The notes below the pieces were generated by a model. The model saw only the letters and a list, made by a program, of their open reading frames with translations. It was not told where the DNA came from and ran no database searches. A stretch of 62,952 bases of DNA, the filler included, from Chrysochromulina tobinii (lineage: Eukaryota), in NCBI GenBank assembly GCA_001275005.1. It is 4 parts of 4 records of this genome, joined end to end, with 100 filler letters (N's around TTAATTAATTAA, not from the genome) between each part and the next. Parts side by side here need not be neighbours in the genome. Positions count along the whole stretch, not along the records: positions 50,022 to 62,952 come from JWZX01001368.1; 3 more parts are not named here. One strand, 5' to 3'. How positions within the stretch are numbered: the first letter of the stretch is position 1; every line of letters begins with the position of its first letter. The translations under genes and the position numbers were made by a program. Below, piece after piece: positions 16,039 to 55,282 of the stretch.

Positions 16039-16138
16039 NNNNNNNNNNNNNNNNNNNNNNNNNNNNNNNNNNNNNNNNNNNNTTAATTAATTAANNNNNN
16101 NNNNNNNNNNNNNNNNNNNNNNNNNNNNNNNNNNNNNN
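16039..16138. other. Artificial contig spacer (N44-TTAATTAATTAA-N44)
   Basis: 100-nt N run with a six-frame stop linker. Confidence 0.97.
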
Positions 16139-20865: not shown

Positions 20866-20965
20866 NNNNNNNNNNNNNNNNNNNNNNNNNNNNNNNNNNN
20901 NNNNNNNNNTTAATTAATTAANNNNNNNNNNNNNNNNNNNNNNNNNNNNNNNNNNNNNNNNNNNN
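20866..20965. other. Artificial contig spacer
   Basis: N run with TTAATTAATTAA. Confidence 0.97.
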
Positions 20966-49921: not shown

Positions 49922-50021
49922 NNNNNNNNNNNNNNNNNNNNNNNNNNNNNNNNNNNNNNNNNNNNTTAATTAATTAANNNNNNNNNNNNNNNNNNNNNNN
50001 NNNNNNNNNNNNNNNNNNNNN
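49922..50021. other. Artificial contig spacer
   Basis: N run with TTAATTAATTAA. Confidence 0.97.
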
Positions 50022-50697
50022 GCCTGCGGCGGGCTAAGGGGCAACTTGAATACCCCTTCCAGAACGCGCCCCCCTGTCGGTCCTCGACAAGTGGTACCTA
50101 CCCATTGCGACTCGCAGTTCCGACCAACTCAGTTCGGTTGCCAAAAGAGGCCTCCAAATGTCGGTTCTGGGTAACTATCGTGCTTCGTGGAAATTAGGAA
50201 AAGCGCGTAGTGCGTCGCTCTTGGACTTGGTCGAATGCAGTTGGTGCACCCACACTTGTGCACCCGCAGCTCGCATGCTCGCTCGCGGCTCCACGTCGAC
50301 ATAGATGGGCGTCGGCTCGCAGGAAATGTGCGTAACGTTTCGGTTCGCGAGGAATTCGCGAGGTCGTCCGCACGTCGTCCTCGGGCTGCCGGTACCACGG
50401 CGCTACCGTTCTTCGCACTTCGGTCTTGTTCCGGTCCGTATACATGCTGTTCATCACCTCAAGGGGATCACCTATCCAAAAGGCGGCTTGAGGGGGGGGC
50501 ACACCGCACACGCCGCGCGCGGGCGGCCATGCGCAGGGGCGACCGCGTCGGCGGGGCATTCCGGTCATTCCGTCTTTTCTCATTGACATTGTAGATCGGA
50601 TTGGGTCAAATCCCATGGTTATCCCACATTGTTCAAGGTAAATTGTTCTCATGTGATGTGATGTGACACGTTTGCACATGCGGAACTATTCCTGGAG

Positions 50698-50769
50698 AAC
50701 GCGTTCTCTCAGATCTCGGCGGGCCATCAAAGATTTGGCATTTATTGCCTCGATCGTCATGACTACGTT
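50698..50769 (-). promoter_or_regulatory. Candidate type II SECIS element in a 3' UTR
   Basis: Minus strand reads AACGU-AGUCA-UGAC-GAUC-GA-GGC-AAUAAAU-GCC-AA-AUC-UUU-GAU-GGC-CC-GCC-GA-GAUC-UGAG-AGAAC-GCGUU. Helix I AACGU/GCGUU, AUGA.../...GA non-Watson-Crick quartet, helix II GAUC-GA-GGC/GCC-GA-GAUC, unpaired adenines and an apical mini-stem. Folded by hand. Confidence 0.72.
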
Positions 50770-50809
50770 GTTGCACACATGTGAACGCCAGATCCGGTAC
50801 TCGCATATG

Positions 50810-51112
50810 TTATCGCAGCTGCTGTAGGATGGGCTGCAACAATTGTCGCGCCTTCATCTCCATGGCCTGTGGCGACATGGGACTGTCAGGACATCTGATT
50901 CTGACGTCACCACGGCCGTGGGATGCGCCAACGACCACCTTGACTCCTTCGCTGGCTCCTTCCGACTCAAGAGCGGCCAGACACGCACGGTGAAAGGTCG
51001 GCACGATGTAACCGCGACGGTCCTTGCCTCAGCAGTTGCCAGGCTCCAGGGCGCTGGTGTCGATCACCACAATGAGCTGTGCCGCCTTCGGCGTCGTGTC
51101 TGTCGCCATCAT
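50810..51112 (-). CDS. Candidate selenoprotein, 100 aa, Cys27-Sec28 (in-frame TGA at 51031-51029)
   Basis: ATG ATG at 51112/51109; MMATDTTPKAAQLIVVIDTSALEPGNC-[TGA]-GKDRRGYIVPTFHRACLAALESEGASEGVKVVVGASHGRGDVRIRCPDSPMSPQAMEMKARQLLQPILQQLR-TAA. A SECIS-like hairpin starts ~40 nt after the TAA. Confidence 0.7.
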
Positions 51113-51424
51113 GTCGTCGAAAAAAGTCACGATCCGCGACGATGTGCCCAAGTCAGAAGTTTATCTTTGTACATGTGTTTACTCTCGGATTCGTCAGACG
51201 TAGTTCGGCGTCTAACGAGCTCCAGGTGTGCAAAGTGCATGCTAGAGACTATATGGTTATTTCTTTCTAACAATTTCTTTCTCAGACTCGGACAGTTGTG
51301 TTGCCGTCCCGACCGAAAACCACGATCTTTACGCAGGGCCCGTGCCCGCGCCCGGTGAGCTCGTGCAAGCCACTTTTAGCTAGATTGAGCTCGCGTGTCA
51401 TAGTCGAGCGCGCCTTGCACGACA

Positions 51425-52309
51425 TCACCAGTTGTCCCAGGCGATCGGCGCGTTCGGCGAGCGGATCACGCAGTGGGGCGTTGGCCCATGTTTCGTCCAG
51501 AAGGCATCTGGCAGTTTGGGGGCGTGTGTGTCCTTGAGCGAGGCGGGCGCCCACTGCTCGAAAGGTGGAAGCGAGACCACTTGGGGCTGCGCCGAGCAGT
51601 ACGGCCGTGCTCCCGGCTTGGCGAGGTATTGCTCTGCGCATGACGCGAAGAGCGACAAGGACACGACAGTGAGTGGGTCGCACGAGCAGCCGTATCTCGC
51701 GACGTCAGGCGGAGGGGCAAGGCGCGCACGGTGGTAGTCCTCTCCGTAGTAGAAGATCGTATCGAACTCGGACGCCGCCTTCATCTCGGTCGTGATTTTA
51801 CGGGGCTTGCCAGCCTTTTTGGACAAGGCCGCCTCGTACGCCGCGGCACTCGCCTCGATCAGCTGCCGCTGCTCATCGTCGGTCCAGTAGAACCCACTCC
51901 GGTACTGGGTGCCCCTGTCGTTGCCCTGGCCCATGCCTGCGGTGGGATCGTGCGCCTCCCAGAACCAGCGCAGGATGTCGACGAAGGAGATCTTAGATGG
52001 GTCGTAGACGACCTGCACCGCTTCAGTGTGGCCAGTGCGGCCGGAGCACACCTCCTCGTACGTGGGGTTGGGCGTGTAGCCGGCTGCGTAGCCTATGGCG
52101 GTGCTGTGGATGCCGCCACCTGGCAGGCGCCAGATGCCCTTCTCCGAGCCCCAGAAGCAGCCATTCCCGAAGACAGCCACCTTGAAACCTGCCGGCCATG
52201 GCCCCTTCATCGGCGTGCCAAGCACGAAGTGCTTGTCTGAGACAGGCATCTCGGAAGGGCGTCCGGGCAGAGCCCTTTCCTTCTCGACCATCGTCTCTGA
52301 GCCGCCCAT
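51425..52309 (-). CDS. msrA: Peptide methionine sulfoxide reductase A; 2 exons (intron 51729-51634)
   Basis: GNGCFWGSEK, GYAAGYTPNPTYEEVCSGRTGHTEAVQVVYDP and HDPTAGMGQGNDRGTQYRSG. Removing the 96-nt GTGCGC...GCGCAG intron restores EDYHQQYL. Start uncertain: a hydrophobic stretch continues upstream to ~52351. Confidence 0.95.
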   Translation of the reverse strand: MGGSETMVEKERALPGRPSEMPVSDKHFVLGTPMKGPWPAGFKVAVFGNGCFWGSEKGIWRLPGGGIHSTAIGYAAGYTPNPTYEEVCSGRTGHTEAVQVVYDPSKISFVDILRWFWEAHDPTAGMGQGNDRGTQYRSGFYWTDDEQRQLIEASAAAYEAALSKKAGKPRKITTEMKAASEFDTIFYYGEDYHRARLAPPPDVARYGCSCDPLTVVSLSLFASCAEQYLAKPGARPYCSAQPQVVSLPPFEQWAPASLKDTHAPKLPDAFWTKHGPTPHCVIRSPNAPIAWDNW

Positions 52310-52774
52310 GAGAAGCGAGCAGACGAGCCCCGTGAGAGCTAGTGCGAGCACGAACTCCGTTTATGCGTGGGGTCCATCGTCGGCGACCGAAATTTTCTGA
52401 GAAAGTTCCGAATGAGACTGCGGTCAGTTTACGTTGATCCGTTGTTGCGGGATGCTCGGGTTAAAGGCGCCGAAGCGCGTAGGGGGCGCGCCCGGCGGGG
52501 CGGTGCGCGAACGCCTCAGACGCGTGCCACGATTTGTGCGTTGTGCGGACTGGGGCGCGTGCTCCTTGGGTCCTTGTGGTACTGTCAGTATCAACCTAGT
52601 GCACACGACCAAGCTCAGCGCAGTTTCTCAGAAGGCGATGTGAAAACTAAAACGGGTACCAATCGCGCTGATTGGTTTTCCACACAGCTCATCGAGAGCG
52701 AGGTCGCGATCAGCACGCGGAGGCCTTCGCCATCGTCGCAATCGTCGTGTCGACGTCCTCTATTCACTACGGTC

Positions 52775-53020
52775 ATGAGGAGAGATCACTTGTTAGTATC
52801 CACGCTTGCGGCTCTGACATCCGTTCGGGGCGCCTTCTTCGCCGGTACGCCGCTGCCGCAGTCGCTTGAGCGGTCCAGCAGCAGCGCCGGCGCGCTCGCC
52901 CATCCTCTGCAGCAGCAGCAGCACGGCACTGCGTTCCTGGGCAGCAGCCGCGTCTCCTGCTTCGACAGCGGGATTTCCAGCAGCAGCAGCAGCAGCAGTA
53001 GCCGAAGCAGCAGCAGCAGC

Positions 53021-53055
<35 letters not shown>

Positions 53056-55282
53056 GTGTCGCAGGCGTGCGACATTGCCTGCGTGTGTCGCGACCGATGC
53101 CGATTCGGCCCTCAAGGCGGCCGAGATGCGCGCGCGTGCAGCCATGGAGGCGGCGGACGCGGCGGAGAAGGCGGCCAAGGGCCGGACGGCAAGCTTCGTG
53201 CCGAGCGTGGCCTCAGGGCCGGCCACCTTTCCGCTCGCGGCGGTCGTGGGCCAGGAATCGATCAAGACCGCTCTGCTACTGACGGCGGTCAACCCGAGCG
53301 GCGTGGGTGGCGTGGTTATCTCGGGCACGCGCGGCACGGCCAAGTCGATCATGGCGCGCGGTCTGCACGAGCTCTGCCCGCCGATCGAGGTCGTTAAGGG
53401 CTCTCCCTTCAATATTGACCCGAGCACGGGCACGATGCAGGAGATCGACTCGTTCCTCCTGGCCGAGTTGCAGGCGACGGGCAAGAAGCTCGAGGATCTC
53501 GAGACGGAGATCATCCCGACGCCGTTCGTGCAGGTGCCGCTCGACGTGCTCGAGGACCGGCTGCTCGGCTCGGTCGACGTCGAGAAGAGTGTGCGCACGG
53601 GTAAGACGGTCTTCGAACCTGGCCTGCTCGCTCGGGCGCACCGGGGTGTCCTCTACGTGGACGACCTCAACCTGCTCGACGAGTCCATCTCGAACCTGCT
53701 CCTCGAGGCGCTCTCGACAGGCTGGGTGAGCGTCGAGCGCGAGGGCCAGTCCGTACGCCATCCATGCCGGCCGCTCCTCATCGCCACCTTCAACCCCGAG
53801 GAGGCCGAGCTTCGGGAGCACTTGATGGACCGGATCGGCATCTGCCTGTCGGCGGACGCGGAGCCGCTGACGCAGGAGGAGAGGCTCGAGGCGACGCAGC
53901 GCGCGGTCGAGTTCAGCACCGACCCGCAGGCCTTCATCAAGAAGTACGAGGAGGGCACGAGTGCGATGAAGAGCGCCATCACGTTTGCCCGCGAATACAT
54001 CAAGCCGATCAAGACCAAGAGAGCCCAGATGAAGTATTTGTGCGAGAACGCGATCCGCGCGGGGGTCCAGGGCAGCCGCGCCGACATCTACTCGTCCGAG
54101 GTGGCGCGCGCGAACGCGGCGCTCAACGGCAACGAGATCGTGGACGCAGATGACCTTGTGCTTGCGATCAAGCTGTGCATCGCACCTCGCGGCACCGAGA
54201 TCCAGGCGCCTCCGCCACCCGACGACCAGCAGATGCAGCAGCCGCCGCCGCCGCCGCCGCCGCCCGAGCAGGAGCAGGACCAAGACGAGGACGAGCAGGA
54301 GCAGGAGCAGGAGCCCGAGCCCGAGCAGGAGCAGGACGACGCGGCACCCCCTATCCCCGAGGAGTTCATGTTCGATGTCGAGGGCGTGGCTCTCGACCCC
54401 GAGGTGATGAAGTTCGCCAACAAGGCCAAGAGCGGGCGCAGCGGCTCGCGCGGCAAGATCTTCTCCGATGAGCGTGGCCGCTACATCAAGCCGATGCTCC
54501 CCAAGGGCAAGGTGAAGAAGCTCGCCGTTGATGCTACCATGCGCACCGCCGCGCCTTACCAGAACAAGCGTCGCGCGCGCGAGATGGAGAAGACGGGCGT
54601 CGACCAGGCAGGAAGAGTCTTTATCGAATCGGCCGACGTGCGCTCGAAGAAGATGGTGCGGAAGGCGGGCTCGCTCATCATCTTCGTCGTGGACGCGTCG
54701 GGTTCGATGGCGCTCAACCGGATGAACGCGGCCAAGGGTGCTGCCATCTCTCTCCTCGCGGAGGCGTACCAGTCGCGTGATAAGATCTCGCTCATCTCCT
54801 TCCAGGGAGAGTTTGCTCAGGTGGTGCTCCCGCCCACACGTTCGATTGCGATGGCTAAGAATCGACTCGAGCGCATGCCGTGCGGCGGCGGCTCGCCGCT
54901 CGCACACGCGCTCAACATGGCAGCGCTCACGGGCATGAATGCCCAAAAATCGGGCGATGTGGGCGAGGTGCTGGTCGTCTGCATCTCGGATGGGCGCGCG
55001 AACGTGCCCCTGAGCGTGAGCGTGGGCGAAGGCCCCGTCGAGGGTGCGCCCCCGGTGGACAAGAAGGAGCTCAAGGAGGAGGTGCTCAAGACGGCGCGGA
55101 TGCTCGGCATGCTTCAGGGCTTCAAGCTGCTCATGCTCGACACCGAGAACAAGTTCGTTTCCACCGGTGTCGCCAAAGAGATCGCCGCCGCCGCCCAGGG
55201 CAAGTACCACTACATCCCCAAGGCCTCGGAGGGCGCCGTCGCGAGCGTCGCCTCGCAAGCCATCGCAAACATGCGCGGCTGA
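52775..55282 (+). CDS. chlD: Magnesium chelatase subunit D, plastid-targeted
   Basis: AAA+ domain (FPLAAVVGQESIKTALLL, SGTRGTAKS, FEPGLLARAHRGVLYVDDLNLLD), Pro/acidic linker, C-terminal vWA domain (FVVDASGSMALNRM). N-terminal signal peptide followed by a Ser-rich transit-like region. Confidence 0.96.
52978..53052 (+). repeat. (AGC)n microsatellite encoding poly-Ser in the ChlD transit-like peptide
   Basis: Direct observation. Confidence 0.9.

What the first reader, a model, noticed from the sequence alone, without database searches (positions are those of the whole stretch)
50698..51112. Hidden candidate selenoprotein: Cys-UGA ORF with a type II SECIS-like element, just downstream of msrA
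Seen: the ORF track lists only the 64-aa part after the TGA. An ATG at 51112 opens a frame with one in-frame TGA directly after a Cys codon (GNC-U-GK), then 72 more sense codons to TAA at 50810. About 40-110 nt downstream the 3' sequence folds by hand into helix I (AACGU/GCGUU), the AUGA/GA quartet, helix II with a tandem GA/GA mismatch, unpaired adenines and an apical mini-stem. Established: eukaryotes recode UGA as Sec using such a 3'-UTR SECIS, and haptophytes have large selenoproteomes. Inference: the vicinal CU in mid-sequence does not match families I recognise (Rdx CxxU, SelF CxU, TrxR C-terminal GCUG). The strand-CU-helix-strand-'GRGDVRI' layout loosely suggests a thioredoxin/Rdx-like fold, so this may be a new family. 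Helix II (9 positions) is slightly shorter than canonical.
Basis: partly seen in the sequence, partly recalled or inferred. Interest (0 to 1): 0.93.

Follow-up and report, generated by a model that had tools for sequence, protein, structure and literature searches.

The report
Orphan algal Cys-Sec selenoprotein gene
A small algal gene beside msrA is transcribed, unspliced, across an internal UGA codon and a SECIS-like hairpin, so it likely makes a 99-100-residue selenium protein with neighbouring cysteine and selenocysteine, predicted to act in redox chemistry and matching no family in the libraries searched.

Summary
The frame 51112-50810 (-) has one TGA (codon 28) right after Cys27, then 72 sense codons. 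RNA contigs show an unspliced RNA, separate from msrA, spanning TGA and hairpin with no differing letter (2 of 6 runs in one piece). The hairpin at 50769-50698 folds into a type II SECIS shape, passes my re-implementation of loose SECISearch rules (chance 2.6% per 410 nt) and Rfam SECIS_1 is its best hit, though far below the gathering score (14.2 of 35 bits). Three natural variants keep the TGA; the post-TGA frame has only two synonymous changes and no indels while flanks diverge. No covariation, no distant or Cys homologue was found among 1.84 billion representatives, Pfam, NCBIfam or PDB. The proposed Rdx fold has no sequence support; two low-confidence models disagree. Verdict: likely real selenoprotein gene (about 0.85), probably a lineage-restricted new family, most likely a small redox protein. 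The scan had not noted it on other DNA.

The parts
50810..51112 (-). Candidate selenoprotein CDS, 100 codons (99 from the conserved second ATG at 51109), single exon, ends in TAA
   Evidence: unspliced RNA contigs; frame intact in L001-L004
51029..51034 (-). Cys27 codon (TGC) and in-frame TGA, predicted Sec28
   Evidence: TGA kept in 4 of 4 loci and in RNA contigs of 4 of 6 runs that cover it
50698..50769 (-). Type II SECIS-like element, 41 nt after the stop and 269 nt after the UGA: helix I, AUGA/GA core (50760; 50711-50708), 9-position helix II, A-rich bulge, mini-stem
50622..51136 (-). Extent of RNA-contig cover of this gene (one 3' piece reaches 50467); strand inferred from ORF and SECIS, not shown by contigs
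   Evidence: X13 50622-51108, X14 50653-51136, X12 and X15 in two overlapping pieces; X16 50753-51007, X17 50664-50964
51425..52309 (-). Neighbouring msrA (Cys form, no TGA), two exons with a 96-nt intron 51729-51634; its RNA contigs end at 51262-51290 and do not contain the SECIS
   Evidence: Pfam PMSR E 5e-48; splice joint in 6 of 6 RNA runs

Best explanation
This is a separately transcribed, intronless gene whose UGA at codon 28 is likely read as selenocysteine by way of the type II SECIS-like hairpin in its 3' UTR, giving a small soluble protein predicted to use its Cys27-Sec28 pair as a redox switch. Shown: the open frame, the RNA across UGA and hairpin, the fold of the hairpin, conservation of TGA and downstream frame in variants. 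Inferred from established eukaryotic Sec biology: SBP2 binds the AUGA/GA kink-turn core and eEFSec delivers Sec-tRNA at the UGA; without selenium the UGA stops translation after 27 residues. Inferred from analogy: adjacent Cys-Sec closes a selenenylsulfide ring as in the GCUG of thioredoxin reductase and the SCUG of selenoprotein N; it sits in the loop between the first strand and first helix of both models, where thioredoxin-like proteins carry their active site. By inspection there is no signal peptide or membrane helix, so a cytosolic thiol/peroxide redox role is my commitment (about 0.85 that it is a selenoprotein, about 0.65 that the site is redox rather than metal-binding, given that).
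For: Unspliced RNA spanning TGA and SECIS with 0 differing letters (X13, X14 in one contig each), starting about 24 nt before the ATG and separate from msrA; introns are spliced and intergenic DNA uncovered in the same libraries, so these are transcripts. SECIS shape is the MFE and passes published loose thresholds of -12.6/-3.7 kcal/mol (PMC1802603 section 7). Rfam SECIS_1 best hit here but not at two other AUGA candidates tested as controls; E 3.1 over 4227 families equals about 7e-4 for that one model (my arithmetic). Variant L004 (89% identical over 2.5 kb): 2 substitutions, both synonymous, and 0 indels in 219 nt after the TGA versus 17 events in 333 nt of transcribed non-coding sequence, Fisher p 0.005; L001 p 0.04. 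Codons 13-100: 3 of 3 changes synonymous (chance 0.015). 72 stop-free codons have about 5% chance. All 20 N-terminal database fragments viewed end at Cys27. Algae have large selenoproteomes with families almost only in Sec form (PMC7539508). SelN has Sec462 in SCUG and a disease-linked Arg466; here Arg32 is also four residues after Sec (PMC8967691).
Against: No distant homologue and no Cys-form homologue, the usual proof for a new selenoprotein. No compensatory change in the SECIS; L004 has a 1-nt insertion in helix II, drops to the loose level of my scan and is not hit by SECIS_1 at E<=10; the SECIS is not significantly more conserved than other transcribed non-coding sequence (p 0.28). Rfam score is 14.2 against a cut-off of 35. 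Codon-usage score of the post-TGA frame is weak (-11.1; best of its strand, but 12% of background pieces score as high). The conservation test rests on three related variants and on regions chosen after seeing the data. Two database proteins (P0002, P0010) have Trp at 28; probably a gene caller reading TGA as Trp, but their DNA was not seen. Sec machinery of this organism was not checked (no genome held). Fold unresolved (pLDDT 49 and 53).
Confidence: 0.6

Rival explanations
1. A real selenoprotein that is a much reduced, diverged member of the selenoprotein N-like superfamily: only the thioredoxin-like C-U-G catalytic module, without membrane anchor or EF-hand. It would then be an odd offshoot of a known family rather than a new one.
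For: Internal vicinal C-U-G after a hydrophobic strand with Arg at Sec+4, as in SelN; I recall two more matching residues six and seven places before Sec (recalled, untested). SELENON occurs in algae, nearly always as Sec form. Earlier scan notes describe a broad bacterial SelN-like C-U superfamily (unchecked).
Against: phmmer over 1.84 billion representatives returned no SelN-like protein at E<=0.001; the 'longer' search none at E<=10. 100 aa against a SelN with Sec at 458-462; Asn, not Ser, before Cys. No SelN sequence could be obtained for a direct test.
Confidence: 0.15
2. A real selenoprotein, but a ferredoxin-like (HMA-type) metal-binding protein: the Cys-Sec pair in the first strand-helix loop would chelate soft metals (Cu, Hg, Cd, Zn) as a chaperone or detoxifier.
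For: The better model (pLDDT 53) is strand-helix-strand-strand-helix and all top VIA hits are ferredoxin-like, Z 5-8; the metal-binding extension of CzcP (4u9r) is rank 16, Z 6.1, rmsd 2.9, 79 aligned. HMA domains carry their Cys motif in the same loop (own knowledge).
Against: HMA profile from 38 domains scores -0.6 bits, 733 of 2000 shuffles as high; hhalign probability 0.3%. Z below 8 is common background; the other model gives a different topology.
Confidence: 0.12
3. UGA is a true stop: a 27-residue micropeptide gene or a non-coding RNA with a conserved 3' part, the open frame and hairpin being coincidence.
Confidence: 0.1
4. A recent pseudogene (nonsense change at a Cys or Trp codon), or a gene on the opposite strand.
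For: Trp at 28 in P0002 and P0010. The antisense frame is open for 171 codons and also has 5 of 8 changes synonymous.
Against: TGA is fixed in 4 of 4 loci and the same allele as P0002 is also called ending at Cys27 (P0019); no decay after the TGA; a SECIS lies where expected. The antisense frame has no ATG in its conserved part and is frameshifted in 3 of 3 variants.
Confidence: 0.03

Closest known systems
Eukaryotic SECIS-dependent selenoprotein genes with type II SECIS (Rfam SECIS_1, RF00031; algal selenoproteomes, PMC7539508, PMC2375036)
   Same: In-frame UGA, Cys next to it, 3'-UTR hairpin with AUGA/GA core, adenine bulge and mini-stem on one mRNA
   Different: Protein matches none of the profile libraries searched; SECIS scores far below the Rfam cut-off; no Cys homologue found
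Selenoprotein N (SELENON/SelN), SCUG motif
   Same: Internal vicinal C-U-G with Arg four residues after Sec; present in some algae, almost only as Sec form
   Different: 100 aa, no membrane helix, no EF-hand, NCUG not SCUG, no detectable sequence similarity
Thioredoxin reductase C-terminal GCUG (fish TXNRD1 ends in GNCUG, PMC13134290)
   Same: Vicinal Cys-Sec; the same five residues G-N-C-U-G occur here
   Different: Here the motif is internal, followed by 71 residues, and there is no flavoprotein domain; resemblance is best read as convergence
Rdx family (SelW/SelT/SelH; PF10262)
   Same: Size about 90-100 aa, Sec after the first strand, strand-helix-strand-strand-helix layout
   Different: CU instead of CxxU, ten-residue longer loop, no profile similarity

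Membership tests
Eukaryotic selenoprotein gene | In-frame UGA in a mature, unspliced-at-that-site mRNA | tested here: met
   RNA contigs cover the TGA without intron or differing letter
Eukaryotic selenoprotein gene | [quoted passage not shown] | tested here: met
   Loose SECISearch-like rules passed (loop 23-24 nt, at the limit), Rfam SECIS_1 top hit below cut-off, on the same contig as the TGA; a weak pass
Eukaryotic selenoprotein gene | Coding conservation on both sides of the UGA | tested here: met
   Three close variants only: no indel, synonymous-only changes in codons 13-100
Eukaryotic selenoprotein gene | Sec/Cys pairing in distant homologues | tested here: inconclusive
   No distant homologue found; databases split genes at TGA and hold few algal transcriptomes
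Eukaryotic selenoprotein gene | Covariation in the SECIS | tested here: inconclusive
   Variants too close; only a core C>U and a 1-nt insertion in L004
Eukaryotic selenoprotein gene | Sec machinery in the genome; selenium in the protein | not testable with these tools
   No genome held; no tRNA in the window; needs 75Se or MS
Rdx (SelW/T/H/V) | CxxU motif | tested here: not met
   Motif is C-U; no Cys at position 25
Rdx (SelW/T/H/V) | Profile similarity to PF10262 | tested here: not met
   No Pfam hit; profile of 29 bacterial members -1.3 bits, at shuffle level (members from one phylum only)
Rdx (SelW/T/H/V) | Thioredoxin-like fold | tested here: inconclusive
   SelW 2npb Z 3.9, rmsd 3.8, 73 aligned, rank 43 on a pLDDT-49 model; not in the top 50 for the second model
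SELENON / SelN | Internal SCUG motif | tested here: inconclusive
   NCUG here; C-U-G and Arg at +4 agree
SELENON / SelN | N-terminal membrane helix, EF-hand, Sec at about residue 460 | tested here: not met
   100 aa, Sec at 28, no upstream exon or open frame: stops in frame upstream, RNA starts near 51136
SELENON / SelN | Profile similarity of the thioredoxin-like domain | not testable with these tools
HMA domain (PF00403) | Profile similarity and CxxC motif | tested here: not met
HMA domain (PF00403) | Ferredoxin-like fold | tested here: inconclusive
   Second model ferredoxin-like at Z 5-8, pLDDT 53
Poorly described algal families (Hypo 1-3, UGSC, MSP, SymSEP etc.) | Sequence similarity to catalogued members | not testable with these tools
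NCBIfam gave no hit

The most novel reading that the evidence does not exclude
A so far uncatalogued eukaryotic selenoprotein family, confined to one freshwater algal lineage, that exists only in Sec form and places a vicinal Cys-Sec pair inside a stand-alone 100-residue domain unrelated to Rdx, SelF/M, SelN or TrxR; invisible to homology-based selenoproteome surveys and to gene callers.
Probability: 0.55. Interest if true: 0.75.

Novelty: new variant of a known kind. Interest (0 to 1): 0.62.

Why it matters
New eukaryotic selenoprotein families are rare: a survey of 137 algae reported 42 families, three of them new (PMC7539508). An orphan found without any Cys homologue suggests that homology-dependent surveys undercount algal selenoproteomes. 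A soluble 100-residue protein with an internal Cys-Sec pair would also be a minimal model for vicinal selenenylsulfide chemistry, which is otherwise studied on the tail of thioredoxin reductase or in the membrane protein SelN. The recoding mechanism itself is ordinary.

Tried and rejected
Whole-genome search: none held. Pfam, NCBIfam: 0 families at E<=10. PDB by sequence: only interleukin-37 at E 0.058, rejected. Word-index searches near/longer/shorter: 4, 0 and 3 hits, all the gene itself or close variants cut at the TGA. phmmer on 1.84 billion representatives: 6 hits, 5 self or variant fragments and one repeat protein (P0008) rejected as chance. Viral contigs: 0 relatives; 9 matches to a degenerate pattern of the motif, none in an open frame. 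Prokaryote genomes: one hit, L005, lies antisense to a bacterial gene among stops, rejected. Phage tblastn: E 0.1 on tape-measure genes, rejected. Lake DNA runs X18 and X21 hold no copy of the ORF at 80% likeness; no inference drawn. Foldseek: no match at E<=0.001 for either model. Rdx and HMA profile tests negative. A hairpin just after the UGA (SRE-like) is no more stable than shuffles and not kept in L004. SECIS belonging to msrA: rejected, msrA is Cys-type and its RNA ends about 490 nt earlier. Attempts to obtain SelN relatives by short patterns: 0 of 401 genomes, 5 of 151 (controls 13), 0, 1 (chance) and 0 viral matches. A plasmid search with a metal ATPase was not used. No language-model look-alike search was obtained, so remote families visible only that way remain open. 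Literature: ten searches found no description of this protein; the library lacks most subscription papers.

Full report
Observation. On the minus strand an ATG at 51112 opens a frame of 100 codons with a single TGA at codon 28 (51031-51029), directly after a Cys codon, and ends at TAA 50812-50810. A standard ORF list shows only the 64-aa piece after the TGA. The MFE of 50770-50697 has helix I, an open core with AUGA (50760) opposite GA (50710-50709), a 9-position helix II with a tandem G.A/A.G mismatch, an A-rich bulge and a 4-bp mini-stem: -16.6 kcal/mol whole, -10.6 upper stem. It is not more stable than shuffles (z -0.77), and in a 91-nt context helix I is not in the MFE.

Is the SECIS more than chance? 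I re-implemented the loose SECISearch rules given in PMC1802603 (section 7 read). In the window 36 sites pass the loose level and 5 the strict level (MFE agrees with the pattern), this one included; 39 of 1500 surrogate 410-nt UTRs pass strict and 233 loose. A pattern of my own, designed after seeing the element, hit only this site, with 3 hits in 10 shuffled windows. Rfam gave no SECIS hit on 901 nt, but on 131 nt SECIS_1 was the best of 4227 families, over the full model, on the right strand, at 14.2 bits against a cut-off of 35, E 3.1. Two of the other four strict candidates were run as controls and gave no SECIS hit. The evidence is real but modest.

Transcription. Seventeen runs hold the stretch, six of them RNA. 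In X13 (50622-51108) and X14 (50653-51136) one contig spans TGA and SECIS with no differing letter and no joint; X12 and X15 cover it in two overlapping pieces (X15 down to 50467); X16 and X17 cover only the part after the TGA. msrA has its own contigs (52377 to 51262-51290) with a 96-nt intron removed in 6 of 6 runs, and 51137-51261 is uncovered, so the libraries are RNA and the two genes appear as separate transcripts. Contigs give neither strand nor true ends; these runs are of the same culture type as the window and are not independent organisms.

Natural variants. One scan of metagenome contigs gave four loci. L003 is identical to the window; L001, L002 (95-96%) and L004 (89%) are variants. 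All keep TGA, TAA, the frame and synteny with msrA; the second ATG (51109) is the start they share. Against L004 the 219 nt after the TGA have 2 substitutions, both synonymous, and no indel (msrA CDS: 5 in 786 nt), while the upstream spacer has 51 substitutions in 141 aligned nt and transcribed non-coding parts have 17 events in 333 nt (Fisher p 0.005; L001 p 0.04). Across variants, codons 13-100 carry 3 changes, all synonymous (chance 0.015); the three amino-acid changes are in residues 5-12. Against this: few, related variants; regions chosen after the fact; the SECIS shows no compensatory change, L004 has a core C>U and a 1-nt insertion in helix II, passes only the loose level and is not hit by SECIS_1; the codon-usage score after the TGA is weak. 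All 20 N-terminal fragments viewed in the protein collection end at Cys27; two records read on with Trp at 28, probably a gene caller's code choice, DNA not seen. The long antisense frame lacks an ATG in its conserved part and is frameshifted in 3 of 3 variants.

What protein is it? No family in Pfam or NCBIfam, no PDB relative, and nothing but itself and close variants in three word-index searches and a full phmmer pass over 1.84 billion representatives. These collections are mostly called with bacterial rules, which cut such a gene into pieces of 27 and about 64 residues, so absence is weak evidence. Two AlphaFold2 models (pLDDT 49 and 53) agree on strand, long loop with CU, helix 38-50, strand(s), C-terminal helix, but not on topology: the first matches assorted alpha/beta folds (best Z 5.0; SelW Z 3.9, rank 43), the second ferredoxin-like folds (best Z 7.9; CzcP metal-binding extension Z 6.1). 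Profiles built here for Rdx (29 sequences) and HMA (38) score the protein at shuffle level. An internal vicinal CU does have a precedent: selenoprotein N carries Sec in SCUG (PMC12839072, passages) with a disease-linked Arg four residues later (PMC8967691, passages), and the same C-U-G-x-x-R spacing occurs here; SELENON is listed among algal families found almost only in Sec form (PMC7539508, parts 1-4 of 8 and passages; supplement unreadable, and it may list a matching 'hypothetical' family). But SelN's membrane helix, EF-hand and length are absent, and I could obtain no SelN sequence for a direct test. Fish TXNRD1 ends in GNCUG, the same five residues (PMC13134290, passages), there as a C-terminal tail. 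Earlier scan notes on bacterial SelN-like C-U proteins are unchecked leads seen after I had noted the idea; the scan holds no look-alike of this protein.

Organism. No call names it. GC of 55-70%, few introns, a nuclear ChlD gene whose likely N-terminus looks by eye like a signal plus transit peptide, and relatives in environmental contigs fit an alga with a complex plastid; haptophyte is plausible but inferred. Selenium requirement is reported for several prymnesiophytes (PMC6254913, passages). MSRA is among the families most often found in algal selenoprotein gene clusters, but this msrA is the Cys form and adjacency alone shows no functional link.

Mechanism. Shown: one RNA holds the UGA frame and a SECIS-shaped hairpin 269 nt downstream, and the frame after UGA is constrained. 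Inferred: SBP2/eEFSec-dependent Sec insertion gives an approximately 11-kDa soluble protein; its Cys27-Sec28 pair cycles between selenolthiol and selenenylsulfide and passes reducing equivalents to an unknown partner. I put about 0.85 on a true selenoprotein gene; within that a redox role of a family of its own is most likely, a reduced SelN-like offshoot or a metal chaperone less so.

Verdict. A likely real, unannotated selenoprotein gene using the ordinary eukaryotic recoding mechanism, with a protein that fits no family searched. New variant of a known kind; interest 0.62, limited by the lack of distant homologues, covariation and a reliable fold. Other papers touched: PMC2375036 (passages: three unnamed hypothetical selenoproteins in Ostreococcus, sequences not seen) and PMC4807772 (passages: nothing relevant); the rest only as search listings.

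Noticed in passing
window 51634-51729 (-): The msrA intron is 96 nt and stop-free in frame, so gene callers read through it (294-aa record) whereas the spliced protein is 262 aa; joint seen in 6 of 6 RNA runs.
   Followed up: yes
window 52377-52309 (-): msrA RNA contigs begin at an ATG (52377) that opens a 12-codon out-of-frame upstream ORF; an in-frame GTG at 52351 would add a hydrophobic, signal-peptide-like leader.
   Followed up: no
window 49922-50021, 16039-16138, 20866-20965: N runs around a short palindromic linker: the window is several contigs joined, so the giant ORF below 49302 is not a shown neighbour of this gene.
   Followed up: partly
window 22597-49161 (-): A single open frame of 8,854 aa; by eye it has LRR-, ankyrin- and polycystin-channel-like parts near the C-terminus (recalled, not scanned).
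   Followed up: no
window 52412-55282 (+): Magnesium chelatase ChlD gene, divergent from msrA, with a possible bipartite plastid-targeting N-terminus from a later Met.
   Followed up: partly
window 51918-52235, RNA runs X16 and X17: A second, diverged msrA-like transcript aligns here, probably a paralogue.
   Followed up: no
L007-L035: Rdx/SelW-like genes occur in 128 of 201 genomes of the phylum of G001 (L005, a Gemmatimonadaceae record) and 128 of the 129 listed matches carry an in-frame TGA.
   Followed up: no
G061:C12:34504-34692 and G040:C2:123175-123354: Two HMA-domain matches with an in-frame TGA, possible Sec-containing metal-binding domains.
   Followed up: no
clusters 5 and 6: Unrelated long proteins (P0018, P0026, P0027) are listed as cluster members of the short fragments; looks like a database artefact.
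   Followed up: partly
window 6474 (-), 7646 (+), 9769 (+), 25157 (+): Four other sites pass the strict SECIS-like scan; the two with AUGA gave no Rfam SECIS hit and are taken as chance.
   Followed up: partly
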